Shown piece by piece: positions 4,297-22,558 of a stretch of DNA of 34,123 bases. The number at the start of each line of letters is the position of its first letter. Position 1 is the stretch's first letter. The stretch lies in the UHGV virus genome UHGV-1338014. One strand, written 5' to 3'. The stretch comes from a virus. A program made the position numbers and the translations under genes. The notes beneath the pieces were generated by a model that was given only the letters and a program-made list of their open reading frames with translations, ran no database searches and was not told the DNA's origin.

Positions 4297-4309
4297 GGAG
4301 AGCGAAATC

Positions 4310-4537: not shown

Positions 4538-4569
4538 TAACGGCTTATTTATTTGTGAGGAATAACAAA

Positions 4570-4833: not shown

Positions 4834-4847
4834 AAGGAACGCTGACA

Positions 4848-5567: not shown

Positions 5568-5587
5568 TTAACAGGAGCTTTATTTAT

Positions 5588-6112: not shown

Positions 6113-6210
6113 TACCACCATTAATATTTAATTAATTCACACTCTTTTAATTATGGCGCGATGCGTCAGGGGATTGCTCGCGCCTGAATCTGATATCTGA
6201 GAAATAAAAA

Positions 6211-6741: not shown

Positions 6742-6770
6742 AATCTTTTATTGCGAAGAGGTATTACGAA

Positions 6771-8572: not shown

Positions 8573-8593
8573 TCATCTTTTTTAATTCAATGA

Positions 8594-8616
8594 AGCCGGT
8601 AAATCCGGCTTTTTTT
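8594..8616 (+). terminator. Rho-independent terminator (AGCCGG-TAAAT-CCGGCT plus T7)
   Basis: GC stem, 5-nt loop and a run of seven T directly after the stop of the 8093..8572 ORF; an identical copy lies at 16155..16177. Confidence 0.75.
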
Positions 8617-8671
8617 ATGCCTCCGGCACTATGAAGCAGACCACGTTTAAATCTGCTTCACAGGTGCTTTT

Positions 8672-9268: not shown

Positions 9269-9269
9269 T

Positions 9270-9497
9270 ATGGGTAAAGGCTGGGATGCCTCGCTGAGAG
9301 CCGGGCGGCGTGACCGCCTGCGTCAGGAGGTTTTACATCGTATGGCCGGAGGTCCGCCGCCAGAGCCGGTGGACTATACCGGTCATGACGGTACACACGC
9401 CAGCTACTACATGCGTGGCTGGAACTCCGTGGATACACGGGACATTTTCTGGCAGTGCCAGAAGTACAAGGAAAAACTCAATGCACAGAATGAATAG
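9270..9497 (+). CDS. Hypothetical small protein (75 aa), lysis region
   Basis: ORF starting 1 nt after the lys stop; no transmembrane segment; function unknown. Confidence 0.4.
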   Translation: MGKGWDASLRAGRRDRLRQEVLHRMAGGPPPEPVDYTGHDGTHASYYMRGWNSVDTRDIFWQCQKYKEKLNAQNE

Positions 9498-9891
9498 TCT
9501 TTTTGTTCGCGTTATTTACTCCCGCTTTATGTTGTGCCAGTGGTCGTTTCTGGGACTGTCGGCAGTACTTTTTCTGGCAAGCTGTTTTGCCGGATGGCGG
9601 GCGTTTGCGGTCATGGTGCTGGCATACGGCGCGACACTCTGCCTGATTCACAGTTTCTCGCTGGGCAACGTACCTAATCGCCTGCAACCCAAAAGGCGTT
9701 TCCGGGCCGCCTCCCTTCGAATTGTCGGGTGGTCATGGGTGGTCTGGGCCGTTGGTCTTTTCATGCTGACATTCGGCCTTCTTTATCTGAAGGAGCCTTA
9801 TCAGCTGGCGTTCTGGCTGGGCGGTATCTTTTGCGCGGCACTTTATAAACATCAGCGCAGTTTTCATAAGGGGGATTCATGGATCCGTTAA
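9481..9891 (+). CDS. Putative multi-pass membrane protein (holin-like candidate, 136 aa)
   Basis: Internal ATG 9481 with AAGGA RBS; about four hydrophobic helices (FLGLSAVLFLASCFAGW, AVMVLAYGATLCLIHSF, GWSWVVWAVGLFMLTFGLL, LAFWLGGIFCAALY). The upstream part of the 9310 ORF looks untranslated. Confidence 0.5.
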   Translation: MHRMNSLFVRVIYSRFMLCQWSFLGLSAVLFLASCFAGWRAFAVMVLAYGATLCLIHSFSLGNVPNRLQPKRRFRAASLRIVGWSWVVWAVGLFMLTFGLLYLKEPYQLAFWLGGIFCAALYKHQRSFHKGDSWIR

Positions 9892-10487
9892 CCCTTTCAG
9901 GCATCGCCTCTGTTCTGCTGAAAGCCGGGCCGGGGCTGATTCGTTCCGTCGGGCGCTGGTTTGGTGGTAGCACATCTGCCGCCGCTGACTCGGTGGCCGG
10001 TATGGTGGAAAGCGTCCGGGAAAGCCTGCCGGTTACCGAACAGCAACGCATTCTGGAACAACAACTGACGGCGTTGTCACCGGAGCAACTGATGCAACTG
10101 GAAACGCTGAAAGTCCAGTTACAACAGCTTGAGGTGGAACGGCAGAAGCTGGTGCTGGCTGACGAGCAGGCCGCGCATCACGAACAGCAGGAAACCATCC
10201 GCAATGGTGACAACGCTGCGGACAGCTATGTGCGCCAGACGCGCCCGCTGCTGGCCCGTCTTTCCTGTTACAGCAGTCTGACCTATGTGCTGTTGCTCTC
10301 CTGTGGCCAGATTGCCGGAGCCATTGCCGGTGCCAGAGGTATCACACTGCATATGCCGTCACCGGACTGGGATATCACGCTGATGTTGCTTACCCCGGCG
10401 CTGGGCTATCTCGGAGTAAGAACCATGGACGGCTTTGCCCGGTACAGCAAATCGAGCCGTCACAAAATCTCTGCGGGGCCGAAATGA
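9879..10487 (+). CDS. Hypothetical protein with coiled-coil middle region and C-terminal hydrophobic segments (202 aa)
   Basis: ORF overlapping neighbours in the lysis/early-late region; possibly lysis-associated. Confidence 0.5.
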   Translation: MDPLTLSGIASVLLKAGPGLIRSVGRWFGGSTSAAADSVAGMVESVRESLPVTEQQRILEQQLTALSPEQLMQLETLKVQLQQLEVERQKLVLADEQAAHHEQQETIRNGDNAADSYVRQTRPLLARLSCYSSLTYVLLLSCGQIAGAIAGARGITLHMPSPDWDITLMLLTPALGYLGVRTMDGFARYSKSSRHKISAGPK

Positions 10488-10711
10488 CCGACGAAATCGA
10501 CCGCATCAGTGAAGTGGTTATGAACGAACGTCAGAGCGTCGTTAACGCCTGGCAGACGCGGACAAAAGAAGCGCCCCATAGTCGGGGCTGCTGCAATGAC
10601 TGTGGGAACGTTATTCCGGCACAACGCCTTGCGGCGCTGCCGGATGTGGTGACCTGTATTGACTGTCAGCATATTCGGGAACGCAGGAGGAAAACGTGTC
10701 CTGGGAAATGA
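10484..10711 (+). CDS. TraR/DksA-family C4 zinc-finger protein (75 aa)
   Basis: CNDCGNVIPAQR...CIDCQ four-cysteine motif characteristic of phage TraR/DksA-like proteins. Confidence 0.7.
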   Translation: MTDEIDRISEVVMNERQSVVNAWQTRTKEAPHSRGCCNDCGNVIPAQRLAALPDVVTCIDCQHIRERRRKTCPGK

Positions 10712-11001
10712 TCAGAGCCAACTGGCCCATTCTGTGGGCATTGCTGATGACAGGAATAAACCTGCTTCAGTTGATACTGGCGAAAACCTACGTCAAACGT
10801 GAAGAGTTTGATTCACTCCGTTCCCGCGTGTCGGTGATGGAAAGCCAGGTACACCATTTACCTGACCGTGATGAGTTCCACCGCCTGCAACTGGATATCA
10901 GCAATCTGCGGGGAGAAATCAAAGAACTGGGGCCATCCATCCGCCAGGTATCCCGCATCAGCGATTTGTTATTAGAGAACGAGTTAAAGGAAAAAAATTA
11001 A
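10696..11001 (+). CDS. Membrane-anchored coiled-coil protein (101 aa)
   Basis: N-terminal hydrophobic helix (WPILWALLMTGINLLQLIL) followed by a predicted coiled coil; function unknown (could be a spanin-like or assembly protein). Confidence 0.5.
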   Translation: MSWEMIRANWPILWALLMTGINLLQLILAKTYVKREEFDSLRSRVSVMESQVHHLPDRDEFHRLQLDISNLRGEIKELGPSIRQVSRISDLLLENELKEKN

Positions 11002-11294
11002 TGGCGATGAAAGAGATCCTCACTGAAGACCGTCGTCTGGTGTTACTGCGTTCCCTGCTGGACTGTGGCGACAGCGCGAATGAATCCGTGTTGCAGACCT
11101 GCCTTCAGGCTTACGGTCATAAGGTATCCCGTGATGTGGTGCGCACTCAGCTTGCATGGCTTCGCGAGCAGGGGCTGGTTCGTCTGTCTGATGTGGGCGG
11201 CTGTTACGTGGCTGAAATCACCGGCAGCGGCGAGGATGTGGCAAACGGCCTGTCCAGCGTTCCGGGCGTTAAAAAACCCCGTGCGAGGGACTGA
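11001..11294 (+). CDS. Hypothetical protein, possible winged-helix fold (97 aa)
   Basis: ORF with start overlapping the upstream stop; function unknown. Confidence 0.5.
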   Translation: MAMKEILTEDRRLVLLRSLLDCGDSANESVLQTCLQAYGHKVSRDVVRTQLAWLREQGLVRLSDVGGCYVAEITGSGEDVANGLSSVPGVKKPRARD

Positions 11295-11296
11295 GC

Positions 11297-11584
11297 ATGG
11301 CCCGAAAACTGAAGCCGTTAAGTCGCGGAGAACGGGCCGTCGTGCGGCAACTGGCGTACTGCCTTGTGCTGGCAGATATTGAGCAAAACGCCATTGTCCG
11401 TGCATACGAAAAACAGACAGGAAAGCCCTGGAACCCGGATGCACCGGATACCCCCATGAAACGCGCCCTGCGATCATCACCGGCATGTGCGCGGCTGTGG
11501 AAGCTGTTAAGTAAGGATATTCAGTCCGTTCGTGAAGAAATATACGCCGGTCTGAAAACGCAGAGGTCTGAAGATGGAAAATGA
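11297..11584 (+). CDS. Hypothetical protein (95 aa)
   Basis: ORF immediately upstream of the small terminase gene. Confidence 0.5.
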   Translation: MARKLKPLSRGERAVVRQLAYCLVLADIEQNAIVRAYEKQTGKPWNPDAPDTPMKRALRSSPACARLWKLLSKDIQSVREEIYAGLKTQRSEDGK

Positions 11585-12155
11585 ACAACGCCCCACCCGT
11601 GGCCGTCTTTCCAAAGTGGATTTACTCCCGGACAGCATCCGGGAGCAGTTACATCAGATGCTGCGGGAAAAGCGGCACACGCAGGAAGAAATCCGCGAAG
11701 CCATCAACACCCTGATTGACGAACACAACCTGCCGGAAGAGATGCAGTTAAGCCGGACGGGCTTAAACCGCTATGCCAGCCGTATGGAAAAAGTCGGGGC
11801 CAAAATCCGCGCCTCCCGCGAGATGGCCGAGGTCTGGGCGGCAAAGCTGGGTTCCGCGCCGACGTCAGACGTCGGCAAGCTGCTGATGGAGTTTGTAAAA
11901 ACGCTGGCCTTTGAAACGTCCATGTCGATGGCAGAAGACGACAAGCCCGTTGCACCGAAGGCGCTGGGCCAACTGGCGCTGGTTGCCCAGCGTCTGGAAG
12001 CAGCCGCCATGACCAGCCATAAACGCGAGAAAGCGATCCGCGATGCGTTTGCGCAGGAGATGGCAGAAAAAACCGAAGAGCTGGTCAGAACGGGCGGTCT
12101 GTCAGGCGGTGCGGCTGACACCATCAAACGGGACATTCTGGGGATTAGCGCATGA
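11574..12155 (+). CDS. Terminase small subunit, Mu gp27-like (193 aa)
   Basis: Position immediately upstream of large terminase with overlap; size and charged helical composition typical of Mu-like small terminase. Confidence 0.7.
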   Translation: MENEQRPTRGRLSKVDLLPDSIREQLHQMLREKRHTQEEIREAINTLIDEHNLPEEMQLSRTGLNRYASRMEKVGAKIRASREMAEVWAAKLGSAPTSDVGKLLMEFVKTLAFETSMSMAEDDKPVAPKALGQLALVAQRLEAAAMTSHKREKAIRDAFAQEMAEKTEELVRTGGLSGGAADTIKRDILGISA

Positions 12156-13687
12156 CACAGATGAACACGTTCAGTGAATCCGATGTTCTGCTGCCGTATC
12201 AGAAACGCTGGGTTGCGGATGATTCAAAACTGAAAATCGCCGAGAAATCCCGCCGTACCGGTTTAACCTGGGCAGAAGCGGCAGATGCGGCACTGACCGC
12301 ATCACTGAAGAAGGAAAACGGCGGGAGCGATCACTTTTATATCGGTTCGAATAAGGAGATGGCCCGCGAATTTATCGACGCCGTGGCAATGTGGGCGAAA
12401 GCGTTTAATGCGGCAGCAGAAGAAATCCGCGAGGAAGTGATCACCGACGAAGACAAGGACATTCTGACGTTCGTCGTGTACTTCGCCAGCGGATTTAAGG
12501 TCAAGGCGCTGTCCAGTAATCCGGGCAACATTCGCGGGATGCAGGGGAATGTCACCATCGACGAGGCGGCGTTTCATGAACAACTGGATGAGGTACTCAA
12601 GGCGGTCACACCACTGACCACGTGGGGCGGTAAGGTTCGCCTTATCTCTACCCATGACGGCGTGGACAACCCGTTTAACCAGCTGATTCAGGAAAGCCGC
12701 GCAGGCAAAAAAGATTACCGTATTCACACCATCACGCTGGATGATGCCTGCAATGACGGGCTGTACCGGCGTATCTGTCAGGTGCGCGGCATGGTGTGGT
12801 CACCGGAGGCCGAGGCGGAATGGAAAGAAGGTCTGCTGAGAAATACCGCCACCCGCGAAGACGCCCTGGAGGAATACTACTGCGTCCCGAAAAACGGCGG
12901 CGGCACGTATATCCCTCGCTCACTGCGTGAACGTGCGGCCCGTGGCACCGGGAAAGTGTTGCGCTTTACCGGCACACCGGAATTTAACGCACTGACAGAA
13001 AGCCAGCGCCGGGCAGAAATCCGGGAATGGCTGGAGACGGTGGTGCGCCCCGAGCTGGAAAAACTCCCGAAGAACCTGCGCCACTGTCTGGGGGAAGACT
13101 TTGCGCGTTCGGGTGACCTGACCGTACTGGCCCCTGTGACGGTGAACGATGACACCACCCGCGAGGTGCCGTTCCTGGTTGAGCTTGGCAATGTGCCGTT
13201 TAAACAGCAGGAGCAGGTGCTGTTCTGGCTTTGCGATCGTCTGCCCCGTCGTGACGGTATCAAAATGGATGCACGGGGGAATGGTCAGTATCTGGCAGAA
13301 CAGGCGGCGGAGCGGTACGGCGATGAGGTGGAACAGGTGATGCTGTCCGTGGCGTTCTACCGCGAAAACATGCCCCGTTTCCGTGCAGCGTTTGAAGATG
13401 ATGAGCTGATCCTTCCGAAGCATGAAGACGTGATCAATGACCTCGGGGCCATTCAGTTACTGCGTGGTGTTCCCGGCATTGACGATGCCCGTACTAAAGG
13501 TAGCGATGGCCGCAAGCGTCACGGCGATGCCGCTGTGGCCATTTTCCTGGGCTTCCTTGCCAGCAAGGATGACTGCCACCGTTACGAGCTGCACCGCCTG
13601 AACCGCCCGGCGAAACCGGAAGAAGGCAACACGCGCCGCCAGATGAAACTGACACGCGGCCTGAAAAATGAGGGAGGTTTACTGTGA
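12152..13687 (+). CDS. Terminase large subunit, Mu gp28-like (511 aa)
   Basis: Size and position; N-terminal ATPase region and C-terminal nuclease-like region with acidic residues (GEDFARSGDLTVL). Confidence 0.85.
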   Translation: MTQMNTFSESDVLLPYQKRWVADDSKLKIAEKSRRTGLTWAEAADAALTASLKKENGGSDHFYIGSNKEMAREFIDAVAMWAKAFNAAAEEIREEVITDEDKDILTFVVYFASGFKVKALSSNPGNIRGMQGNVTIDEAAFHEQLDEVLKAVTPLTTWGGKVRLISTHDGVDNPFNQLIQESRAGKKDYRIHTITLDDACNDGLYRRICQVRGMVWSPEAEAEWKEGLLRNTATREDALEEYYCVPKNGGGTYIPRSLRERAARGTGKVLRFTGTPEFNALTESQRRAEIREWLETVVRPELEKLPKNLRHCLGEDFARSGDLTVLAPVTVNDDTTREVPFLVELGNVPFKQQEQVLFWLCDRLPRRDGIKMDARGNGQYLAEQAAERYGDEVEQVMLSVAFYRENMPRFRAAFEDDELILPKHEDVINDLGAIQLLRGVPGIDDARTKGSDGRKRHGDAAVAIFLGFLASKDDCHRYELHRLNRPAKPEEGNTRRQMKLTRGLKNEGGLL

Positions 13688-15255
13688 ACCTGAAACAACT
13701 GGCCGGAGCCGTTCGCCGTCTGCTGAACCCGGCAACCGGTGAGGAAGATACGCTGAAAAAAGAGAGGCTCGATGAAGTACAGGCCCGTCCGCGTCAGGCA
13801 GGTGTGCGCTCGGCCTCGCCGGGCATCAGTATCGCTTCCGGGCTGAATCCCGGCAGGCTGGCAGGTATTCTGCGCAATGCTGCCGACGGTATCACACGTG
13901 ATTTTTTTATCCTTGCCGAAGAGATGGAAGAACGCGATTTGCATTACGCTTCGGTGTTGCGCACCCGCAAGCTGACGGTAGCCGGTATCGAACCGGTGGT
14001 GGTTGCCGCCAGTGATGACGATGCCGACGTGCAGCTGGCGGACGCCATCCGGGCGCTGATGGACGCTCCGCAAATTCCCGAACTGTTGTTTGATTTGCTC
14101 GACGGGCTGGGAAAAGGTGTGGCGGTCTGTGAAATTCTCTGGAACACCCGCAACAACCACTGGGTGCCCCGTGATTATGAGTGGGTTGATCCCCGTTTTC
14201 TGAAAGCCGAAAAGCCCACGCTGCGCCAGTTCCGCCTGCTGACTGACGATGAGCCGGTGGATGGCGTACCGCTGACACCGGGAAAATTCATTGTTCACCA
14301 GCCGCGTCTGAAATCCGGTCTGCCGCTGCGTAACGGTCTGGCCCGTCTGGTGGCGGTAATGTACATGCTGAAATCCTTTACCGTACGTGACTGGTGGGCA
14401 TTTGCGGAAAAATTCGGCATTCCGGTCACGGTGGGGAAATACGGCCCCAACGCCACGGAGGAGCAAATCCGCGTGCTGATTGACGCGATTGCCTCCATTG
14501 CCTCGGATGCCGGGTGTGCCATTCCGCAGTCCATGCAACTGGAGATGCAGGAAACCGCCAGCCGGAATAACGGCGGTGCACTGTTCCGTGAAATGGCGGA
14601 ATGGTGTGATGCGCAAATCAGTAAGGCTGTGCTGGGGCAGACCATGACCACGGATAACGGCAGTTCGCGTTCACAGGCGGACGTGCACAATCAGGTGCGC
14701 ATGGACATTGTGCGCTGGGATGCGCGGCAGCTGGCTAACACGCTGAACGAATATCTGGTACGTCCCTACATCGAGGCCAACTACGGGCCACAGGCGCACT
14801 ACCCCCGTGTTGTTCTGCGTATCAGTGAAGCAGAAGATCTGAAGGCGCTGACAGACGCCGTCGTGCCGCTGATTGACCGGGGGCTGCGGGTTCAGGAATC
14901 GGAGCTGCGGGACCGGTTCGGTTTTGCTGAACCGGATGAAGGGGCGGAAGTTCTGCATCCTGTGTCTGCCGGGGTGCCAGGTGATATGGCGATGAACCGT
15001 GAGCGCGTCGCCCTGAACCGGGAACACCCCGACGAACTGGCACAGATGGTGGATGATGCCCTGCGTGACTGGCAGAAAACCGGCGAGGCGTTCACGAACC
15101 CGGTGCTGACACTGGCGCAGGAATGCGACAGTTTTGATGACTTTCTGAAACGCCTGCCTGAGCTTCAGGAAACGCTGAACGCGGACGACTTTGCCCTGCA
15201 ACTGGCAGAGGTGTGCTTTAAGGCGCGAGCACTGGGAGACACTGCTCATGCGTGA
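13684..15255 (+). CDS. Portal protein, Mu gp29-like (523 aa)
   Basis: Size and position directly after large terminase with overlap. Confidence 0.85.
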   Translation: MNLKQLAGAVRRLLNPATGEEDTLKKERLDEVQARPRQAGVRSASPGISIASGLNPGRLAGILRNAADGITRDFFILAEEMEERDLHYASVLRTRKLTVAGIEPVVVAASDDDADVQLADAIRALMDAPQIPELLFDLLDGLGKGVAVCEILWNTRNNHWVPRDYEWVDPRFLKAEKPTLRQFRLLTDDEPVDGVPLTPGKFIVHQPRLKSGLPLRNGLARLVAVMYMLKSFTVRDWWAFAEKFGIPVTVGKYGPNATEEQIRVLIDAIASIASDAGCAIPQSMQLEMQETASRNNGGALFREMAEWCDAQISKAVLGQTMTTDNGSSRSQADVHNQVRMDIVRWDARQLANTLNEYLVRPYIEANYGPQAHYPRVVLRISEAEDLKALTDAVVPLIDRGLRVQESELRDRFGFAEPDEGAEVLHPVSAGVPGDMAMNRERVALNREHPDELAQMVDDALRDWQKTGEAFTNPVLTLAQECDSFDDFLKRLPELQETLNADDFALQLAEVCFKARALGDTAHA

Positions 15256-16012
15256 AACCCTCATCCCGAAAGAGGTGCTGGCGTGGCTGAAGGCGAAGAA
15301 GCTGCGCCCCGGTTTTGATTACCGGGATGTGTGGCGGGAAGAACACCGGAACAGCTTCACCGTGGCAAAAATGCTGCAACTGGATTTGTTGTCGGATGTG
15401 AAAGCCCTTGTGGAAGACGCCCTGCAAAGCGGGCAGACGTTCAGTGAGTTCCGGGAGGCGCTGCAACCGCTGCTGATAAAACGCGGATGGTGGGGCGTAC
15501 AGGAGATGGATGATCCGCTGACAGGAGAAACGCGCACCGTACAGCTGGGCAGCGACCGCCGCCTCCGCACGATTTTTGATACCAACATGCGCACCGCCCG
15601 CGCAGCGGGCCAGTGGGAACGCATTCAGCGGACAAAACGGGCCATGCCGTATCTGATTTACGAGCTGGGGCCATCCCGCGAGCACCGGGCGGAGCATGTG
15701 AAATGGGCGCGTCTGTGTCTGCCGGTAGATCATCCGTTCTGGCAGACGCATTTTGCCCCTAACGGCTGGGGCTGTAAATGCACCATCCGTCAGGTCAGCC
15801 GTGGTGAATATGCGCAACTGGCGGCACAGGGCACCATTCACACCGAAGCGCCGGAAATCAGAACTGTCCGCTGGGTGAACAAACGCACGGGCGAAGAGGA
15901 AGATGTGCCGGAAGGGATTGATCCGGGCTGGAACTACAATCCCGGCATAAACCGTGAGCAGGAGCTGGCGCGCCAGCTGGCGACAAAACAGGCCCGTTTT
16001 GACAGTGAATAA
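15248..16012 (+). CDS. F: Head morphogenesis protein, Phage_Mu_F domain (about 255 aa)
   Basis: Motif REHRAEHVKWARLCLPVDHPFWQTHFAPNGWGCKCTIRQV fits the Mu F / SPP1 gp7 family; ATG 15248 overlaps the portal stop. It looks shorter than I would expect for Mu F, which I cannot verify. Confidence 0.75.
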   Translation: MRETLIPKEVLAWLKAKKLRPGFDYRDVWREEHRNSFTVAKMLQLDLLSDVKALVEDALQSGQTFSEFREALQPLLIKRGWWGVQEMDDPLTGETRTVQLGSDRRLRTIFDTNMRTARAAGQWERIQRTKRAMPYLIYELGPSREHRAEHVKWARLCLPVDHPFWQTHFAPNGWGCKCTIRQVSRGEYAQLAAQGTIHTEAPEIRTVRWVNKRTGEEEDVPEGIDPGWNYNPGINREQELARQLATKQARFDSE

Positions 16013-16226
16013 CCCTCCCGCCGTAAATCCCCCTGAAATGCATCAGAAACGCGTTTTTTATTCTGATGGCATGAATGTGCATTCTGACGTTTTTGAAGGC
16101 GCTGTGGCGTTTTTGAAGGGGTTTTGAAGGGGGTATTCTTCCCGTTTTCAGTGAAGCCGGTAAATCCGGCTTTTTTTCTGCCTTCCGCATACTGACCGTC
16201 AGTAACCCCAAACGACGGAGACTGAC
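16013..16226. promoter_or_regulatory. Central non-coding spacer: inverted repeat, three tandem (T)TTTGAAGG repeats, terminator, then late promoter region for gene I; candidate strong gyrase site
   Basis: No ORF; IR CATCAGAA-N12-TTCTGATG at 16041..16068; CGTTTTTGAAGG / CGTTTTTGAAGG / GTTTTGAAGG between about 16091 and 16134; terminator at 16155..16177. The gyrase-site idea rests only on position near the genome centre. Confidence 0.45.
16155..16177 (+). terminator. Rho-independent terminator, identical copy of the 8594..8616 hairpin
   Basis: Same AGCCGGTAAATCCGGCTTTTTTT sequence, downstream of F and upstream of I. Confidence 0.75.
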
Positions 16227-17189
16227 ATGCAACCGGAACTGCTGGCGCTGTGTTTTTCCCTGCCAGAACCCATCAATGAGCTGACACCCGCTCAACTGCC
16301 GGAATGGCTTGAACTCGTCCCTGCGGGTGAGTTCACCGGGCGCGATGGCCGGACGTGGATTAACCGCAATCCACATGAGGTGGTTGCCCGTTCGTCCGAC
16401 ATCAAAATTCCGGTGGACATTGAACACGCCACCGAAATTAAAGGCCCGCGGGGTGAAGATGCTCCGGCGTATGGCTGGGTGGAGGAACTGCGGGTGACGG
16501 ACAGCAGCACCATTGAAGGCCGTGTTGTCTGGAGTGAGTCCGCCCGGTGGATGCTGAGCGAGCGCCGCTACCGCTATTACAGCCCGGCGTTTTTCTTTGA
16601 CGCGGACGGTGCGGTGACACGCCTGTCCAGCGTCGGGCTGACCAACAAACCTAACCTGGATTTTCCTGCACTGAATACGGAGAAAAACCCGATGACAGTA
16701 CCTGTGCAAATCACCGGCCTGCTTGGGCTGGCTGAATCCGCCACGGTGGACGATACCGTGGCCGCCATTAAACAACTTCAGGAGAACGAACAGGTGGCGC
16801 TGAACCGCGCACAGACACCTGATCTGACGAAGTTTGTGCCGGTGGAAACCCACAATCTGGCACTGAACCGTGCCGAAACCGCAGAACAACGCCTTCAGCA
16901 ACTGGAAGCTAAGGAAGCAGAAGCGCTTGTGGATGCGGCCATCGAAGCCGGAAAAGTGGCCCCGGCAAACCGTGACATGTTCCTTGCCACCTGCCGTACG
17001 GAAGAAGGCCGCAAACAGTTTGCGGAGTACACCAGAGGTGCACAGCCGCTGGTGAACAACGACAAGCCCAGCCAGGGCAAGGATAAACCCGCGCAGACAC
17101 TGACCGACGCCGAACTGGCGATGTGCCGCAGCATGGGTATTACCGGGGAAGAGTTCCTCGCCGCTAAACCAAAACAGGAGAATAACTGA
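16227..17189 (+). CDS. I: Head maturation protease / scaffold, Mu I-like (320 aa)
   Basis: Position before the major head gene; Ala/Glu-rich coiled-coil C-terminal half typical of scaffold. Confidence 0.8.
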   Translation: MQPELLALCFSLPEPINELTPAQLPEWLELVPAGEFTGRDGRTWINRNPHEVVARSSDIKIPVDIEHATEIKGPRGEDAPAYGWVEELRVTDSSTIEGRVVWSESARWMLSERRYRYYSPAFFFDADGAVTRLSSVGLTNKPNLDFPALNTEKNPMTVPVQITGLLGLAESATVDDTVAAIKQLQENEQVALNRAQTPDLTKFVPVETHNLALNRAETAEQRLQQLEAKEAEALVDAAIEAGKVAPANRDMFLATCRTEEGRKQFAEYTRGAQPLVNNDKPSQGKDKPAQTLTDAELAMCRSMGITGEEFLAAKPKQENN

Positions 17190-18091
17190 TGGGAGCAGTC
17201 ACTTCCGAAGTCCTTCACGCGCTGACCACCTGTCTGAGCGCCGCTTATACCCGTGGTCTGAGTGGTGTCACCCCACAGTGGCAGCGTATCGCCTCTGAAA
17301 TCCCGAGTTCGTCCGCCTCCAATACCTACGGCTGGATGAAGGATTTACCGGAGATTAAAGAATGGGTCAGCGCCCGTCAGATGGCAACGCTGGACGGTTA
17401 TGGTTACACCCTTGCGAACAAAACCTGGGAAAGTTCGATCCGCGTTAAACGCGAACACATTGAAGACGATCAGATTGGTCAGTACAGCATTATCGCTGAA
17501 CGCTATGGCCGCCAGACGTCGGAGTTCCCGGACAAGCTGTGTTACCCCCTGCTGTGTGCCGGGTTTAACACCCTGTGTTTTGACGGTCAGAACTTCTTTG
17601 ATGAAGACCACCCGCTGGGCGACGGCACCTGCAGCAACGTTGTCGGCACCCCGGCATCAGACCAGGGAGAACCGTGGTTCCTGATTGATGATTCTCAGGT
17701 ACTGAAACCCATCATCTGGCAGACGCGACGCGCCTTTAAGTTTGAAGCCCTGGATGATCTGAACAGCGAGCACACCTTCAAGAATAACGAGTTCCTTTAC
17801 GGGGTGGACGGTCGCTGCAATGCGGGCTTTGGCTTCTGGCAGACCGCCGTCGGTTCCCGTGCGGCACTGACAGCGGAGAACTACGAGAAGGCCAGCAATC
17901 TGCTGCTGGGTATGAAGACCACCAACGGTGAACCGCTGGGCATCCGCCCGACCACCCTTGTGGTGGGACCGAAAAATCGCGCGGCTGCGAAGCGCATCAT
18001 TGACGCCATGCTGGTAAACGGCGGCGATTCCAACATCTGGTACAAGGATGTGGACATCGTGGTCAGTCCGTTCATCACCACCCCGGCATAA
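17189..18091 (+). CDS. T: Major head (capsid) protein, Mu T-like (300 aa)
   Basis: Size and position after protease/scaffold; start overlaps the I stop. Confidence 0.85.
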   Translation: MGAVTSEVLHALTTCLSAAYTRGLSGVTPQWQRIASEIPSSSASNTYGWMKDLPEIKEWVSARQMATLDGYGYTLANKTWESSIRVKREHIEDDQIGQYSIIAERYGRQTSEFPDKLCYPLLCAGFNTLCFDGQNFFDEDHPLGDGTCSNVVGTPASDQGEPWFLIDDSQVLKPIIWQTRRAFKFEALDDLNSEHTFKNNEFLYGVDGRCNAGFGFWQTAVGSRAALTAENYEKASNLLLGMKTTNGEPLGIRPTTLVVGPKNRAAAKRIIDAMLVNGGDSNIWYKDVDIVVSPFITTPA

Positions 18092-18117
18092 CCCGTCATC
18101 CGTAATCTGTAACCCGC

Positions 18118-18149
18118 AGTTAAAAGGCGCTATGAATGCCCTTTTAACT
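18118..18149 (+). terminator. Stem-loop downstream of major capsid gene (AGTTAAAAGG...CCTTTTAACT)
   Basis: 10-bp inverted repeat about 27 nt after the T stop, followed by TTTTAAAA; possible attenuator or mRNA-stabilising hairpin. Confidence 0.4.
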
Positions 18150-18169
18150 GCCTTTTAAAAGGCAGAGTC

Positions 18170-18481
18170 ATGAGTGAAAAAGCAGGAACCAAAGGCGCGA
18201 AAGCCGCAAAGAACAGCGCAGCACAGGAAAACCCGGCACCGCTGGCAGACGTTATTGTGGCTGACGGTCAGGCGAATGAACCACGTCCGGCTGAAGCCCC
18301 GGCTGCTGTACAGGGTGACGTCCCTGTCCGGCTGAACGTCCGGGCCGTGTCTAAAAACGGGTTCTGGCGCTGTGGCCGTTTCTGGTCACATGCCGGTGAG
18401 GATGTGGCGGTGACCGCTGCGGTTGCCACCCGCCTGATGGCTGAACCGAATCTGATTGTCCGGGAAGCGGAGAAAGGCTGA
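18170..18481 (+). CDS. Hypothetical head-associated protein (103 aa)
   Basis: ORF with RBS directly downstream of the capsid gene; Ala/Pro-rich N-terminus. Confidence 0.55.
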   Translation: MSEKAGTKGAKAAKNSAAQENPAPLADVIVADGQANEPRPAEAPAAVQGDVPVRLNVRAVSKNGFWRCGRFWSHAGEDVAVTAAVATRLMAEPNLIVREAEKG

Positions 18482-18918
18482 TGGGGTATATCACGCAGGA
18501 AGACCTGTTACGCGCGGACGGCAATCTTGTCTGGAACATGGCGATTAACCGGGAAACCAACGAACTGGATGAAGACAAAATCCGTCAGGCCATCAGTGAT
18601 GCCGAAGCGGAAATTGATTCGTTTCTGTCCCGCCGCTACCCGCTGCCGCTGGGAGTGACGGAAATCCCGCGCCCGCTGCAACGCGTGGCGGTATCGCTGG
18701 CGTTTTACTGGTTGTCAGAGCGTGACAATCAAATCACGGAGCTGATCCAGAAACGCTACGACGACGCCATTAAAACCCTGCGTGAGATGGCGAACGGCAC
18801 CCGTGACCTGGGTCTGCCGACGTATGCCACCCCGGCAGAAACCGACCACGGGAAGATCATTGTGGTGGGTGCCAATGCCCGGCTGTTCACCCGTAACAAC
18901 CTGAAAGGGGTGCTGTGA
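18481..18918 (+). CDS. Head-tail connector/adaptor-like protein, Mu gp36-like (145 aa)
   Basis: Position and size; start overlaps upstream stop (TGATG). Confidence 0.6.
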   Translation: MGYITQEDLLRADGNLVWNMAINRETNELDEDKIRQAISDAEAEIDSFLSRRYPLPLGVTEIPRPLQRVAVSLAFYWLSERDNQITELIQKRYDDAIKTLREMANGTRDLGLPTYATPAETDHGKIIVVGANARLFTRNNLKGVL

Positions 18919-19460
18919 TGGGGATTTCTGTACAGGTCAGCGGTGACCAGCGGCTGGAGGATATCCGCCGTGCCGTTGAAAAGCTGGCAGATGGTTCATT
19001 GCAGGCAGAGCTGCTGGAAAGCATCGGTGCGGTGGTGGAATCACAGACCCGCCGCCGCATCATCGATGAGAAAACCAGTCCGGGTGGCGAACGCTGGCCG
19101 GACTGGTCTGACGGGTACAAAAAGACCCGCCACGGCAACCAGAGTCTGCTGCGCGGTGAAGGTCATCTGCTGGAGAGTATCCAGTACATTGTGGAAAACC
19201 GCGTGGTGCGCATCGGTTCACCGCTGGATTATGCCCGCATCATGAATGACGGCTTTTCCGGCAGTGTGCCGGTCAGCGCCCACAAACGGCTTATCTCGCA
19301 GTGTTTCGGGCGGGCGCTGAAATATCCGGTCTGGCAGACCGTCGGCGCACATAACCGCATGATGAATATTCCACAACGTGAATTTCTGGGGCTGTCTTCT
19401 GCCAACCAGCAGGAGCTGCAACAGGTTATCAGTCATTTCTGGAAGGAGGTTCTGCCATGA
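18915..19460 (+). CDS. Phage virion morphogenesis / tail completion family protein (181 aa)
   Basis: Motifs SPGGERWPDW, IGSPLDYARIMNDG and REFLGLS resemble the virion-morphogenesis (P2 gpS-like) family. Confidence 0.65.
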   Translation: MMGISVQVSGDQRLEDIRRAVEKLADGSLQAELLESIGAVVESQTRRRIIDEKTSPGGERWPDWSDGYKKTRHGNQSLLRGEGHLLESIQYIVENRVVRIGSPLDYARIMNDGFSGSVPVSAHKRLISQCFGRALKYPVWQTVGAHNRMMNIPQREFLGLSSANQQELQQVISHFWKEVLP

Positions 19461-20068
19461 CAGAACAACGCCCTGAACTGCGCACACCGGGGAGCACAGT
19501 TGCGGCCGCAGAGCGCATTGTGGCCTGGCTGAAAACAGCGCTTCAGGGAAACACCCCTGACCGGGCCGACGTGGTGGAGCGTCACATCGGCCAGTTCAAC
19601 AGCCCCGATGAAGTGAAACGCTATCTGTCCGGTCGCACCGGCTGTATCCGGGTAGCTGCCCTGCGCGTCCGGGATATTAACCCGCGCGGCGGGCTGTCCG
19701 GTCTGGTCACCTGGGTGGCTTACATCATGGCGACGGATTCGTGGGGGTACTCCCGCGACGTGCGCTGTGAAGTGCTGGCCGGGAAGGTGATCAAACGTCT
19801 GCTGTCGTCAGATGCCACAGCGGGCATGGGGGCTGAACGCATGGCTGCTGACGTGCGGGCAGACAACATTTACTCCGCCAGCCTCGACGGGCTGGGCGTC
19901 ACCATGTGGGCGGTGACGTGGGAGCAGGAATTTCAGCTGGATGAAGAGATTGATCTCGCCGCGCTCCCGGACTTCCTGCGCCTCGGGACAACGCTGCGTA
20001 GCGGTGAACATACTGAGATTAACGACGTGATCCATGTACGGGGTGACGATGGAACAGAAACTGATTAA
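19457..20068 (+). CDS. Mu gp38-like structural protein (203 aa)
   Basis: Position between tail-completion gene and sheath gene; overlapping start. Confidence 0.6.
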   Translation: MTEQRPELRTPGSTVAAAERIVAWLKTALQGNTPDRADVVERHIGQFNSPDEVKRYLSGRTGCIRVAALRVRDINPRGGLSGLVTWVAYIMATDSWGYSRDVRCEVLAGKVIKRLLSSDATAGMGAERMAADVRADNIYSASLDGLGVTMWAVTWEQEFQLDEEIDLAALPDFLRLGTTLRSGEHTEINDVIHVRGDDGTETD

Positions 20069-20234
20069 GCCAGCGCGGGAAAGCGTTCGTGTCCGTAAAC
20101 CGGATGGCGCGCATTTATCCCCGGAAGGGGAACGTCTCGATGTCTGCGCTTACTGGCTGCGCCGTGAAGCCGAGGGAGATGTGGAAATAACCACACTTCC
20201 GAAAAATAACAACAAAACCAGAGGGAAAAAATAA
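20034..20234 (+). CDS. Small hypothetical protein (61-66 aa)
   Basis: Short ORF whose stop overlaps the sheath start codon; may start at ATG 20049. Confidence 0.4.
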   Translation: MYGVTMEQKLIKPARESVRVRKPDGAHLSPEGERLDVCAYWLRREAEGDVEITTLPKNNNKTRGKK

Positions 20235-21709
20235 TGTCGCTGGGTTCAATTCCTGATGATATCCGCGTCCCGCTTGTCTGGATCGATATCGACAATTCAC
20301 AGGCGCTGGATGGTGCATCCGCGCAAAGCCGAAAAATTCTGGTCATGGGCCATGCGGTATCGTCCGGTAGCGCAGACGCTCTGTCACTGACCCGCATCAC
20401 CAGTGACAGCCAGGCAGACCAGCTTTATGGCAAAGGGTCGATGCTGGCTGAAATGCTCAAAATGCTGCGCCGTGCCAACACGTACACGGAAACCTGGGCA
20501 ATGCCGGTTGCCGCGCCTGAAGGCGCTGCCGCAAAAGCCACGCTGACCGTGCTGGGTACGGCGACCAACGCCGGAACGGTGGCACTGCTGATTAACGGTG
20601 TGTCCGTTCAGGTGAGCGTGAGCGCCGGGGATACGAAGGAAAACATTGCAAAAGCCATTGCTGATGCGGTGACGAAAAAGCCTGCCACGCAGGTGGCTGC
20701 TGCGGTGAAGGATGATGCCACGGATACCGTGGAGCTGACCATGAACTGGCACGGCGTCACCGGCAACGGTGCCGACGTTCGCCTGAACTACTACACCGGC
20801 GAAGCTTTCCCGGCAGGTGTGAAGGTGACCGCAACCGCGTTTACCGGCGGCACCGGGACACCGGAAATGGCAGGCGCCGTTGCGGCCATCGGCCCGGAGT
20901 GGTTTACCGATATCATCGCCCCGTTTACCGACACGAAAAGCCTGAACACCCTGCGTGATGAACTACTGAACCGCTGGGGGCCGCTCAAAATGATGGAGGC
21001 GCAGCTGTGGACAGCGTTTCGTGGCACGCACGGGGAAACCGGCACGTTTGGTGAAACCCGCAATGACTGGCTGATTAGCTGTATCGGCACCAACCTGTCA
21101 CCGCACCCGGCGTGGATGTGGGCCGCGTCATACGGCGCAACGGCAGCGTATCACCTTGCCATTGACCCGGCGCGTCCGCTTCAGACGCTGGTTCTGACCG
21201 GCATTCTGCCGCCTGCGCGTAATGTTCGCTGGGATATGCCGGAACGTAACCTGCTGCTGCATGACGGCATTGCCACGCACATGGTGGACGCCGGGGATAA
21301 CGTCTGCATCGAGCGTGAAATCACCATGTACCGGGTTAATCAGTACGGTGATGCGGATGTGTCGTACCTGGATGTGCAGTCACCCGCCACGCTGGGCCGT
21401 ATCCGTTACATCATCAAGAACCGTTTCACGAACCGTTATCCGCGCCACAAGCTGGCGGACGATGACGTGCTGGACTCGCTGGATGCGGGGCAGCCGGTGA
21501 TGACGCCGAAGCTGTGCACCGCAGAGCTGCTGGATATCTGCCAGACCGAACTCCTCCCGGCGGGCCTTGTGGAGAACTTCAGCGATTACAGGGACACGCT
21601 TCAGGTGACACGCGACAGCAGTGATAAAAACCGCCTGAACTTTATCTGCCACCCGAATCTGGTGAACCAGCTGCGTGTGCTGGCAGGCCTGATTCAGTTC
21701 AAACTTTAA
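20234..21709 (+). CDS. L: Contractile tail sheath protein, Mu L-like (491 aa)
   Basis: Size and position upstream of tube gene. Confidence 0.85.
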   Translation: MSLGSIPDDIRVPLVWIDIDNSQALDGASAQSRKILVMGHAVSSGSADALSLTRITSDSQADQLYGKGSMLAEMLKMLRRANTYTETWAMPVAAPEGAAAKATLTVLGTATNAGTVALLINGVSVQVSVSAGDTKENIAKAIADAVTKKPATQVAAAVKDDATDTVELTMNWHGVTGNGADVRLNYYTGEAFPAGVKVTATAFTGGTGTPEMAGAVAAIGPEWFTDIIAPFTDTKSLNTLRDELLNRWGPLKMMEAQLWTAFRGTHGETGTFGETRNDWLISCIGTNLSPHPAWMWAASYGATAAYHLAIDPARPLQTLVLTGILPPARNVRWDMPERNLLLHDGIATHMVDAGDNVCIEREITMYRVNQYGDADVSYLDVQSPATLGRIRYIIKNRFTNRYPRHKLADDDVLDSLDAGQPVMTPKLCTAELLDICQTELLPAGLVENFSDYRDTLQVTRDSSDKNRLNFICHPNLVNQLRVLAGLIQFKL

Positions 21710-21718
21710 GGGGGCCGC

Positions 21719-22075
21719 ATGGCAAAAATTCTTGGGATGGCGACCATTCGCGTGAATGGCCGCGAAATTAAAACCGAGGGGAAATCCATACTGAATCCGG
21801 GCGGCTTCAGCCGCACCCAGCATATGGGCGGCGGCAAGGTCTGGGGCATCTCCAGCAAGATGGCCTCACCGTCCATCAAAGTGACCATTGCGGCAGCAGC
21901 GGATATGGACGTGATTGAAATCAGCAGCTGGGAAGACGTCACGGTGATGTTCTACGGCGACAACGGCCTGAACTACATGATGACGGGTTCAGCCACGGAT
22001 AACCCGGCGGAGCTGGACGAGGATTCCGGCACCATCAGTGCGAACTTTATCGGTGAAAAATGCGTGAAGGTGTGA
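21719..22075 (+). CDS. Tail tube protein, Mu M / gp40-like (118 aa)
   Basis: Size and position directly after sheath. Confidence 0.8.
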   Translation: MAKILGMATIRVNGREIKTEGKSILNPGGFSRTQHMGGGKVWGISSKMASPSIKVTIAAAADMDVIEISSWEDVTVMFYGDNGLNYMMTGSATDNPAELDEDSGTISANFIGEKCVKV

Positions 22076-22076
22076 C

Positions 22077-22472
22077 ATGGCCGCAATGGAATTTGAACTG
22101 AAACACGGGCTTCTGACCGGCAAAGGCACGGCAGATGAAACCCTGCATAAAACCGTGAAACTGCGCGAACTGACCGCCAGTGACGTGATTGATGCGCAAC
22201 TGGCCGCAGAACGCGTCGTCATGGGCGGGAACGGAAAGGCGGTGGCTTACTGCTCGGAAGTGCTGATGGGGCTGGAGATGATGCGCCGTCAGGTTGCGTC
22301 AATCGGTAATATCCCCGGCCCGCTGGACATGAAACAGCTGCGAATGCTCCACCCGGCAGACCTTGAACTTATCAGCACGAAAGCCGCTGCGCTGGATGAA
22401 ATGCTTGAGGAGGTGGCAACGCGGGGGCGAACTGATGCCGCTGGCGGCGGCACTGATGAACCTGCTGGTTAA
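22077..22472 (+). CDS. Tail assembly chaperone, Mu gp41 / P2 gpE-like (131 aa)
   Basis: Position between tube and tape measure; an overlapping ORF in another frame (22363..22572) suggests a possible frameshift extension. Confidence 0.65.
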   Translation: MAAMEFELKHGLLTGKGTADETLHKTVKLRELTASDVIDAQLAAERVVMGGNGKAVAYCSEVLMGLEMMRRQVASIGNIPGPLDMKQLRMLHPADLELISTKAAALDEMLEEVATRGRTDAAGGGTDEPAG

Positions 22473-22558
22473 CCTGTCTTCGCGATTCAGCATTCAGTAC
22501 CTGGAACAGCTGCCCCTGCGGCAGCTGTTCCGCCTGATAAAGCAACTGGAGAAACAGC

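What the first reader, a model, noticed from the sequence alone, without database searches (positions are those of the whole stretch)
16013..16226. Repeat-rich non-coding spacer near the genome centre: candidate strong gyrase site or late regulatory element
The 214-bp spacer lies at about 47 percent of the prophage length. It contains an inverted repeat (CATCAGAA-N12-TTCTGATG, 16041..16068), three tandem copies of CGTTTTTGAAGG / GTTTTGAAGG (about 16091..16134) and the terminator. Mu is known to require a centrally located strong gyrase site for efficient replication, and as I recall it lies just upstream of the protease gene. This spacer is the positional equivalent, and the repeats could also be activator sites for the late I promoter.
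Basis: partly seen in the sequence, partly recalled or inferred. Interest (0 to 1): 0.55.

Follow-up and report, generated by a model that had tools for sequence, protein, structure and literature searches.

The report
Central strong gyrase site of a Mu-like prophage
The spacer is this E. coli Mu-like prophage's counterpart of phage Mu's central strong gyrase site, followed by a late promoter; this is a known kind of element that helps the two prophage ends meet for replication, here found in a lineage where it had not been described.

Summary
The window holds an intact Mu-like prophage (53..34051, 5-bp target duplication). The F–I spacer lies at 47% of its length.

The main interpretation holds up. 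An 84-nt block (16066-16149) aligns without gaps to the Mu strong gyrase site (SGS). It is the single best of 73,268 registers in the Mu genome (47/84 identical).

I rebuilt an E. coli gyrase cleavage motif from published Topo-Seq data, using no Mu sequence. Its best site among all 33,994 positions of the window has the 4-nt overhang at 16073-16076. That is exactly the column homologous to the Mu cleavage overhang.

The "three tandem repeats" are the phased T-tract units of the SGS right arm. They are conserved in Mu-like prophages from Escherichia to Marinomonas.

The "terminator" hairpin has a second role. It matches the Mor-activator box of the Mu middle promoter and recurs exactly upstream of the endolysin gene. 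This phage has Mor but no C, so Mor probably drives its late promoters directly.

The repeats are therefore not activator sites. Gyrase cleavage and an effect on replication remain untested. Verdict: a new member of a known kind, of modest interest.

The parts
16010..16139 (.). Predicted 130-bp gyrase binding and wrapping site (motif positions -63..+66).
   Evidence: The rebuilt Topo-Seq motif scores 11.78 here, rank 1 of 33,994 positions (window mean -0.59, sd 2.99). Contributions: left arm 3.99, core 2.96, right arm 6.30.
16073..16076 (.). Predicted 4-nt staggered cleavage overhang GAAT. The top strand would be cut at 16072/16073 and the bottom strand at 16076/16077.
   Evidence: The motif maximum falls here. 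It is the same alignment column as the Mu overhang AATC at 17876-17879 and as the top-scoring sites of 11 related loci and of phage Kp4866-3.
16041..16068 (.). Inverted repeat CATCAGAA-N12-TTCTGATG, lying in the left arm and G-segment of the predicted gyrase site (positions -32..-5). Its loop holds the T6 tract at -19..-14.
   Evidence: It is invariant (0 of 28 columns vary) in six E. coli relatives that are 93-97% identical, but it is not conserved in more distant phages.
16086..16149 (.). SGS right arm. It holds three phased units (16089-16099, 16109-16119, 16120-16130; T tracts at +17, +37, +49), then TATT at +61, then CCCGTTTT (16141-16148).
   Evidence: Gapless alignment to the Mu right arm. 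This is the most conserved part of the family profile: 0.89 bit per column against 0.34-0.56 elsewhere, with AT periodicity peaking at 10.5 bp. AT periodicity is in the top 0.2-1.7% of the window. Positions 16090-16135 are 95.7% identical to the G-I spacer of a Mu-organised prophage.
16150..16167 (+). Mor-type activator box AGTGAAGCCGGTAAATCC of the late promoter of gene I.
   Evidence: It matches the Mu middle promoter Pm (AGTAAAGCCGGTTAATCC). The Mor site is described as 5-bp inverted repeats around a G/C-rich hexamer centred at -43.5 (PMC4390567). The box occurs twice in the window, upstream of the endolysin gene and of I, against 0.02 expected. A Mor orthologue is present and C is absent.
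16153..16177 (+). Hairpin plus T7: an intrinsic terminator for transcription coming from the head genes. It overlaps the Mor box, as at Mu Pm.
   Evidence: An exact 25-nt copy lies at 8592-8616. Mu Pm carries the same terminator-in-promoter arrangement. 0 of 30 columns vary in close relatives.
16188..16193 (+). Candidate -10 hexamer CATACT of promoter P_I, 20 nt after the AATCC of the box.
   Evidence: The same 20-nt spacing is seen in Mu Pm and in the four Mu late promoters. It aligns with the Mu P_I sequence CAAACT. This assignment is inferred, not mapped.
16196..16226 (+). Leader hairpin (CCGTC 16196-16200 with GACGG 16214-18, or GTCAGT 16198-203 with ACTGAC 16221-26) overlapping the Shine-Dalgarno GGAG at 16217-16220.
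   Evidence: A hairpin starting right after the -10 is kept in 13 of 15 Mu-like phages (z < -2), with at least five different stem sequences.

Best explanation
The spacer is a composite of two known Mu elements.

First element, 16010 to about 16149. This is the homologue of the Mu central strong gyrase site. By analogy with Mu, host gyrase binds here and cleaves with a 4-nt stagger at 16073-16076. It wraps the right arm, with its T-tract units in helical phase, around a GyrA C-terminal domain so that this arm supplies the T segment. Gyrase then supercoils processively. This extrudes the about 34-kb prophage as a plectonemic loop with the site at its apex. The two ends come together for transpososome assembly and fast replicative transposition after induction.

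Second element, 16150 to 16226. This is the late promoter of the protease/scaffold and capsid operon. It has a hairpin that terminates upstream transcription and at the same time carries the binding box of the phage Mor activator. A -10 hexamer and a structured leader follow.

What is shown: homology, motif rank, conservation and central position. What is inferred from Mu: gyrase cleavage, end synapsis, the effect on replication, and Mor dependence of the promoter.
For: Homology to the Mu SGS
- Window 16066-16149 matches Mu at the SGS register with 47/84 identities. It is the only register of 73,268 (both strands of Mu) that reaches this value (mean 20.9, sd 4.1).
- Local alignment of the two spacers scores 28 against 17.2 ± 2.4 in shuffles; 4 of 1000 shuffles reach it.
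- A bridge exists. The Mu G-I region matches the TUM9757/SE11 prophage spacer over 241 nt (71.9%, E = 2e-20). Window 16090-16135 is 95.7% identical to that spacer.

Gyrase motif
- I regressed a motif on 618 published cleavage-site scores from W3110 positions 1-274 kb. Cross-validated R2 is 0.74 and no phage DNA was used in training.
- It reproduces the published order of three test fragments: consensus 25.0, Mu SGS 9.8, scrambled 2.0 (published 37, 14.3, 2.5).
- It ranks the Mu SGS 2nd of 36,588 positions in Mu, and window site 16072/73 1st of 33,994 with 11.78.
- The top site of the whole locus falls in the same alignment column in 11 related loci. The same holds for the complete genome of Klebsiella phage Kp4866-3, at 48.0% of its length.

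Right arm
- It is the best-conserved segment in the family and has 10.5-bp AT phasing.
- In close relatives the substitutions fall between the units, not in them.
- In Mu the right arm is the essential part and becomes the T segment.

Context
- The site lies at 47.1% of the prophage; the Mu site lies at 48.7% of the Mu genome.
- The ends, A, B and the early region are 89-91% identical to D108 and Mu, so the transposition machinery that needs the SGS in Mu is the same here.
- The family looks active: up to 3 copies per genome and one copy on a plasmid.

Promoter part.
Against: - No biochemical or genetic data exist for this sequence.
- The motif I used is an approximation (R2 0.74), not the published matrix, which is not held in the library.
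- The motif predicts binding and cleavage preference, not biological strength. By the review's account, strong sites from other sources did not support Mu replication. The Sp18 site, which did, ranks only 287 of 38,630 with my matrix.
- The core around the predicted cut is the most variable part among close relatives: 6 of 26 columns.
- Identity to Mu is only 56% over the block.
- The promoter start site and its Mor dependence are inferred from sequence only.
Confidence: 0.8

Rival explanations
1. The spacer is an ordinary inter-operon spacer: a terminator for the head-gene transcript plus a promoter for gene I. The repeats and the inverted repeat would be incidental or mere remnants of ancestry, and gyrase would play no special role.
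For: A terminator and a promoter are indeed present. Mu also has a predicted terminator inside this region. Similarity to Mu could be shared ancestry without retained function.
Against: - The best gyrase-motif score of the whole prophage falls here, at the column homologous to the Mu cut. The same is true in 11 other loci and in Kp4866-3.
- The right arm is more conserved than the flanks across genera. Its units are spared by substitutions in close relatives.
- The module is kept whether the upstream gene is F or G and whether the promoter is of the Mor or the C type.
Confidence: 0.07
2. The three TTTTGAAGG units are chiefly sequence-specific binding sites for a protein other than gyrase. Candidates are a late-promoter co-activator or UP-like element, a nucleoid protein such as IHF, Fis or HU, or a phage protein.
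For: - The units keep a recognisable consensus, TTT(A/G)AAC(G), from Escherichia to Vibrio and Marinomonas. That is more sequence-specific than bendability alone would seem to demand.
- Formation of the Mu domain also needs IHF, Fis and HU.
- An A/T-rich stretch upstream of the Mor box binds the RNA polymerase alpha C-terminal domain at Pm.
Against: - The units are absent from the endolysin promoter, which has the identical Mor box.
- They lie about 60-105 nt upstream of the inferred start site, while mutations upstream of -57 had no effect at Pm.
- Their T tracts coincide with four of the five AT positions in the right arm of the published gyrase consensus. The local variant TTTTGAAGGGG resembles that consensus (CTTTAAGGGGG), so gyrase preference suffices to explain them.
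- In Mu this arm is footprinted by gyrase and is required for SGS function.
Confidence: 0.07
3. The element is a true homologue of the SGS but is a relic here. It is no longer needed for, or able to promote, replication in this lineage.
For: Natural central sites differ in strength, and only one foreign prophage site supported Mu replication. The cleavage core varies among close relatives.
Against: The prophage is intact, has a target duplication, and occurs in several copies per genome. Its motif score is higher than that of Mu itself. The right-arm units are under visible constraint.
Confidence: 0.06

Closest known systems
Bacteriophage Mu central strong gyrase site (SGS), in the G-I intergenic region of AF083977, overhang 17876-17879
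   Same: - Central position: 47.1% here against 48.7% in Mu.
- It lies immediately upstream of the late promoter of protease gene I.
- Gapless homology runs from the cut through the right arm (47/84).
- Both have three phased T-tract units at the same offsets and the trailing CCCGTTTT.
- Both score at the top with the E. coli gyrase motif, with the right arm as the largest contributor.
   Different: - The upstream gene is F, not G; the G homologue sits at 18915-19460.
- The units read TTTTTGAAGG instead of TTTTTAAAAC.
- The left arm is non-coding here and contains a lineage-specific inverted repeat.
- The Mu terminator hairpin lies inside the right arm. Here a strong hairpin lies downstream of it and doubles as the activator box.
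- This sequence has not been tested experimentally.
Central gyrase site of prophage Sp18 of E. coli O157:H7 Sakai. The review PMC10052514 names it as the only foreign site that supported Mu replication. The primary paper, Oram and Pato 2004, is not held in the library.
   Same: It is the central site of a Mu-like prophage of E. coli, at 47.2% of its length, and shares units 2 and 3 of the right arm.
   Different: The two are not close relatives: 32/84 identities in the block. Sp18 lacks unit 1, has the Mu gene order F-G-I, and scores 6.1 (rank 287 of 38,630) with my matrix against 11.8 here. Neither spacer finds the other by BLAST.
Mu middle promoter Pm (Mor-dependent; AF083977 9163-9233)
   Same: The box AGT(A/G)AAGCCGGT(T/A)AATCC, the overlapping hairpin plus T run, and the 20-nt distance to a -10 hexamer with no -35 are all shared. 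The window's Mor is 60% identical to Mu Mor.
   Different: In Mu this promoter drives the middle operon that encodes C, and the late promoters carry C boxes (CCATAACCCC). Here the Pm-type box sits in front of late genes (endolysin, I), and no C gene exists.
Other strong gyrase sites (pSC101, pBR322) and chromosomal sites such as REP/BIME-2
   Same: They are preferred gyrase cleavage sites with phased G/C content in the arms.
   Different: They have no sequence homology to this spacer and are not central in a transposable prophage. According to the review they do not substitute for the Mu SGS.

Membership tests
Mu-type central strong gyrase site | Lies near the centre of a transposable (Mu-like) phage genome. 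| tested here: met
   Prophage 53..34051 with a 5-bp duplication. The predicted cut lies at 47.1% of its length; in Mu it lies at 48.7%. Mu-type A, B, repressor and ends are present.
Mu-type central strong gyrase site | Sequence homology to the Mu SGS, including the right arm that is essential in Mu. | tested here: met
   47/84 gapless identities, the unique best of 73,268 registers in Mu. Bridged through the TUM9757 spacer. Supported by the multiple alignment.
Mu-type central strong gyrase site | Outstanding match to the E. coli gyrase binding and cleavage motif. | tested here: met
   Rank 1 of 33,994 with the rebuilt motif; Mu SGS as positive control ranks 2 of 36,588. The matrix is an approximation (R2 0.74).
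Mu-type central strong gyrase site | An extended set of phased anisotropic bending signals in the right arm. | tested here: met
   T tracts at +17, +37, +49 and +61. AT periodicity at 10-11.2 bp is in the top 0.2-1.7% of the window; the Mu arm is in the top 0.01-0.9% of Mu. The family profile peaks at 10.5 bp.
Mu-type central strong gyrase site | Efficient quinolone-induced cleavage and highly processive supercoiling by gyrase. | not testable with these tools
   This needs in vitro cleavage and supercoiling assays, or Topo-Seq of a lysogen.
Mu-type central strong gyrase site | Required for rapid end synapsis and replication after induction, and able to replace the Mu SGS. | not testable with these tools
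   This needs deletion and replacement genetics. The requirement is known for Mu.
Mor-dependent (Pm-type) promoter | A 16-bp Mor element (5-bp inverted repeats around a G/C-rich hexamer) about 43 bp upstream of the start, a -10 hexamer, and no -35. | tested here: met
   AGTGA-AGCCGG-TAAAT at 16150-16165, against AGTAA-AGCCGG-TTAAT in Mu. CATACT lies 20 nt after AATCC, as in Pm. The start site has not been mapped.
Mor-dependent (Pm-type) promoter | A cognate Mor activator is encoded by the phage. | tested here: met
   ORF 7686-8096 belongs to Pfam family Mor (E = 6.7e-30) and is 60% identical to Mu Mor. It is the only Mor/C family gene in the window.
Mor-dependent (Pm-type) promoter | Transcription depends on Mor. 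| not testable with these tools
   This needs a reporter fusion with and without Mor, and 5' end mapping.
C-dependent Mu late promoter (P_I type) | A C box, CCATAACCCC-like, 20 nt upstream of the -10, and a C gene. | tested here: not met
   The aligned position holds GGTAAATCC inside a Pm-type box. There is no C homologue. The geometry and the -10 region are nevertheless homologous to Mu P_I.

The most novel reading that the evidence does not exclude
Two readings are not excluded by the evidence.

1. The natural variants collected here number about 15 central sites from Escherichia, Klebsiella, Raoultella, Pluralibacter, Kluyvera, Brenneria, Citrobacter, Apirhabdus and Marinomonas. They share a fixed code: a cut, then TTT(A/G)AAC-type units at +16, +36 and +47, then CCCG..GTTT near +68. 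This code could define what makes a gyrase site 'strong' in the biological sense. The module also appears to move between phage lineages as a cassette: a 46-nt stretch is 95.7% identical between phages whose I proteases are only 29% identical.

2. This lineage may run a shortened transcription cascade in which Mor, without C, fires the late promoters.
Probability: 0.25. Interest if true: 0.55.

Novelty: new member of a known kind. Interest (0 to 1): 0.35.

Why it matters
The Mu SGS is the reference substrate for gyrase mechanics and for the idea that a phage can organise itself as a supercoiled domain. Why it works when other strong sites do not is only partly understood.

This window adds a natural variant from a different head-gene lineage. 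It scores even higher than the Mu site on the E. coli gyrase motif. Together with its relatives it gives a comparative series that shows which positions are held constant: the right-arm units and their phasing. It also shows which are free: the cleavage core and the left arm. That series could guide mutational work.

For annotation, the practical point is that the F–I or G–I spacer of Mu-like prophages should be labelled as a gyrase site plus a late promoter, not as an anonymous repeat region. The biological principle itself is already known.

Tried and rejected
- Crude motif proxy. I counted matches to the weak/strong base pattern of the published 133-bp gyrase consensus. It failed the positive control, because the Mu SGS was not among the top sites of Mu, so I discarded it.
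- Published matrix. The position matrix (Table DS10) is cut off in the stored supplement. I therefore regressed a matrix on published per-site scores.
- Matrix variants. An orientation-aware, non-symmetric fit over-fitted (CV R2 0.02-0.39). Reduced weak/strong models were worse (0.62-0.68) than the full symmetric model (0.74).
- BLAST. The spacer alone against phage genomes gives only chance-level hits apart from Kp4866-3. Mu is too diverged to be found that way.
- Primary papers. Oram and Pato 2004 and Oram et al. 2006 are not held. What I say about them rests on reviews and citing papers.
- RNA families. Nothing was found; sroD at E = 0.29 and 18.9 bits against a gathering score of 50 is a chance match to the terminator.
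- Small ORFs in the spacer (57, 23 and 25 aa). They overlap the conserved non-coding module and have no support, so I did not pursue them.
- RNA structure of the repeat region. It folds no better than shuffles (z = +0.8 for 16105-16150; z = -0.7 for 16013-16150).
- Identity with Sp18, the site already tested experimentally. Rejected: 38% identity in the block and a different gene order.

Full report
**What the window is**

The window holds an intact Mu-like prophage of E. coli. Pfam assigns the following genes:
- a Mu-type repressor (392-916, minus strand);
- transposase A (1331-3319) and B (3358-4296);
- Gam, GemA and Mor (7686-8096);
- an endolysin (8672-9268);
- large terminase, a Mu-type portal, and an F-like head morphogenesis protein ending at 16012;
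- an I-type protease (16227-17189) and the T capsid protein (17189-18091);
- a G-like virion morphogenesis protein at 18915-19460;
- Mom (33199-33936).

The Mu-type left end begins at 53 and the right end stops at 34051. Both are flanked by the 5-bp duplication GCCGC, so the prophage is 33,999 bp long.

The phage is a mosaic. From the left end to about 7.6 kb it is 91% identical to D108 and 89% identical to Mu. The rest has no close relative among deposited phage genomes. Prophages with this F-I region at 93% identity or more occur in 46-49 of 5,426 complete E. coli genomes. Some genomes hold up to three copies, and one copy lies on a plasmid.

**Checking the observation**

- the inverted repeat, with arms at 16041-48 and 16061-68;
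- the units GTTTTTGAAGG (16089-99 and 16109-19) and GGTTTTGAAGG (16120-30);
- a hairpin at 16153-73 followed by seven T.

The units are spaced 20 and 11 nt apart, that is two helical turns and one, rather than head to tail. The spacer lies at 47% of the prophage.

**Homology to the Mu site**

- A pairwise alignment shows one long gap-free stretch.
- The 84-nt block 16066-16149 has 47 identities with Mu at the SGS register. Among all 73,268 registers on both strands of Mu the mean is 20.9 and the sd 4.1, and no other register reaches 47.
- A local alignment of the two spacers beats all but 4 of 1000 dinucleotide shuffles.
- An intermediate confirms the link. A prophage with the Mu gene order F-G-I in strains TUM9757, SE11 and PEC422 has a G-I spacer that matches the Mu spacer over its full 241 nt (71.9%, E = 2e-20). 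That spacer is 95.7% identical to window 16090-16135.

**Conservation in other phages**

I fetched loci encoding relatives of the I protease from one genome per species. The 260 nt upstream of I were aligned for 19 phages, anchored at the Mu cut site. The same module appears, without gaps, in E. coli (three lineages), Raoultella, Klebsiella, Pluralibacter, Kluyvera, Brenneria, Citrobacter, Apirhabdus, an Enterobacteriaceae MAG and Marinomonas. It is partly present in Vibrio and in Sp18. The module consists of:
- a cleavage column;
- three T-tract units of the type TTT(A/G)AAC;
- a G/C-rich stretch between units 1 and 2;
- a trailing CCCG..GTTT.

Across 14 distinct sequences the right arm (+20..+66) carries the most information: 0.89 bit per column, against 0.43 in the left arm, 0.56 in the core and 0.34 beyond the arm. 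The A+T profile of the family peaks at a period of 10.5 bp. The module is kept whether the upstream gene is F or G.

Among six E. coli relatives that are 93-97% identical, substitutions in the right arm fall between the units (16099-16103) and after unit 3 (16134-16140). Units 1 and 2 are untouched apart from one G-to-T change that lengthens a T tract. The inverted repeat and the hairpin are invariant. The region around the cut is the most variable part. This fits what is reported for Mu: the left arm can be changed freely, while the right arm is essential and becomes the transported segment.

**An independent test with gyrase data**

Sutormin et al. (PMC6379681) derived a 130-bp motif from thousands of in vivo cleavage sites. 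They reported that it picks out the Mu SGS as the top site of the Mu genome. Their matrix is not held in the library, but the coordinates and motif scores of individual sites are.

How I rebuilt the motif:
- I copied 618 sites from the first 274 kb of the W3110 chromosome.
- I fetched that DNA.
- I fitted a strand-symmetric linear model of score on sequence.
- The fit fixes the coordinate convention: the cut falls after the listed base.
- Five-fold cross-validated R2 is 0.74. No phage DNA entered the fit.

Controls:

| Test | Rebuilt motif | Published |
|---|---|---|
| Consensus fragment | 25.0 | 37 |
| Mu SGS fragment | 9.8 | 14.3 |
| Scrambled fragment | 2.0 | 2.5 |
| Mu SGS within the Mu genome | rank 2 of 36,588; overhang 17876-17879 | one of the two staggered cuts is the GenBank 'cut site' |

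Results:
- In the window the best of all 33,994 positions is the cut after 16072 (overhang GAAT, 16073-16076). It scores 11.78, about 4 sd above the window mean and above every position in the 274 kb of chromosome.
- This is the very column that aligns with the Mu overhang.
- The right arm contributes most: 6.3, against 4.0 for the left arm and 3.0 for the core.
- The top site of the whole 5-6 kb locus falls in the same column in 11 related loci. It is a local maximum in the remaining module-bearing loci.
- In the complete genome of Klebsiella phage Kp4866-3 the top site is again this column, at 48.0% of the genome.
- A cruder measure, A+T periodicity at 10-11.2 bp, puts the window's arm in the top 0.2-1.7% of the window and the Mu arm in the top 0.01-0.9% of Mu.

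**The rest of the spacer is a promoter**

- The 25 nt GAAGCCGGTAAATCCGGCTTTTTTT of the "terminator" recur exactly at 8592-8616, just upstream of the endolysin gene.
- Both copies, with their flanks, match the Mu middle promoter Pm: CAGTAAAGCCGGTTAATCCGGCTTTTTTTACG.... At Pm a Mor dimer binds 5-bp inverted repeats around a G/C-rich hexamer centred at -43.5. A predicted terminator overlaps that promoter.
- The distance from AATCC to a -10-like hexamer is 20 nt in Pm, in all four Mu late promoters, and here (CATACT, 16188-16193).
- The window encodes a Mor orthologue that is 60% identical to Mu Mor and 32% identical to C. No second member of the family is present.
- The phages of the F-I type carry this Mor-type box upstream of I. 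Those with the Mu gene order carry the C box.

The hairpin is therefore best read as a terminator for incoming transcription that is also the activator site of the late I promoter. This lineage probably skips the C step of the Mu cascade. This part is inferred from sequence only.

Downstream of the -10, a hairpin that overlaps the ribosome-binding site is conserved in structure, but not in sequence, in 13 of 15 phages.

**What the inverted repeat is**

It lies at positions -32 to -5 of the predicted gyrase site, and its loop supplies the T6 tract at -19..-14. It is invariant in the close relatives but absent from more distant phages. Those phages have other hairpins just after the F stop codon.

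Its left arm and loop (ATGCATCAGAAACGCGT) resemble the 3' end of gene G in the Mu-order phages (ATGCCATCAGAAAACGCGT). This could be a relic of a recombination event that brought the site in. I cannot assign the inverted repeat a function beyond being part of the left arm.

**Rivals**

- A plain terminator-promoter spacer does not explain the motif rank, the nucleotide-exact agreement with the Mu cut, or the conservation pattern.
- A protein other than gyrase binding the units is not excluded. It is unnecessary, though. The T tracts sit on four of the five A/T positions in the right arm of the published gyrase consensus. The local variant TTTTGAAGGGG resembles that consensus. The units are also missing from the endolysin promoter, which has the same Mor box.
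- A relic without function is unlikely, given the intact and apparently mobile prophage and the constraint on the units.

**Comparison with what is known, and novelty**

Central strong gyrase sites are described for Mu. According to reviews and citing papers they are also described for D108 and for Mu-like prophages, Sp18 of O157 Sakai being the one that could replace the Mu site. Sp18 is a different and more distant version.

This is therefore a new member of a known kind, in a lineage with a different gene order and promoter type. The defining biochemical and genetic properties could not be tested here.

**Verdict**

- The gyrase-site interpretation is supported by homology, an independent motif test, conservation and position.
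- The activator-site idea for the repeats is rejected in favour of the hairpin.
- Interest is modest (0.35).

Noticed in passing
window 7686-8096, 8589-8616, 16150-16177: The phage has a Mor orthologue but no C gene. Boxes of the Mu middle-promoter (Pm) type, with an exact 25-nt repeat, precede the endolysin gene and gene I. This suggests a two-step cascade in which Mor drives the late promoters directly.
   Followed up: partly
window 33046-33100: Upstream of the com/mom genes lies a degenerate box-like sequence, GTGGTTAAATATCC, followed about 20 nt later by TATCTG. It could be a weaker promoter of the same type.
   Followed up: no
window 16196-16226 and the same place in L001-L029: A hairpin starting right after the -10 of the I promoter and overlapping the ribosome-binding site is kept in 13 of 15 Mu-like phages, with at least five different stem sequences. 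It looks like a conserved leader structure of unknown role.
   Followed up: partly
window about 18092-18200; Mu about 20053-20120: The strongest or second-strongest 10-11 bp A+T periodicity in the window lies just downstream of capsid gene T. Mu has one of its top peaks at the same place, downstream of its own T gene.
   Followed up: no
window 16090-16135 compared with L002 2501-2546: This 46-nt stretch of the right arm is 95.7% identical between this phage and a Mu-order prophage (TUM9757, SE11, PEC422) whose I protease is only 29% identical. The site seems to have been exchanged between lineages.
   Followed up: partly
window 16038-16054: ATGCATCAGAAACGCGT resembles the 3' end of gene G in Mu-order phages (ATGCCATCAGAAAACGCGT), although G is elsewhere in this phage (18915-19460). 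It may be a relic of a G-I type ancestor of the spacer.
   Followed up: no
window 8093-8572: A 159-aa ORF sits where Mu has C, directly before the endolysin promoter. It has no Pfam family and matches only a PHROG of unknown function (phrog_38744).
   Followed up: no
window 1-52 and 34052-34123: The prophage is flanked by a 5-bp target duplication, GCCGC. Related prophages occur up to three times per genome and once on a 136-kb plasmid (pCFSAN004178P_01), so the family appears to be transpositionally active.
   Followed up: partly
L042 10971-49729 (Sp18 of O157:H7 Sakai): The G-I spacer of Sp18 keeps only units 2 and 3 of the right arm. With the rebuilt matrix it ranks 287 of 38,630, although it is reported to replace the Mu site. 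Motif score and biological strength are therefore not the same thing.
   Followed up: partly
L044 1915-2043 (D108 record 17914-18042): The D108 record annotates a small ORF ('31.5', 42 aa) across its G-I spacer, over the gyrase site. Given the conserved non-coding module there, this is probably an over-call.
   Followed up: no
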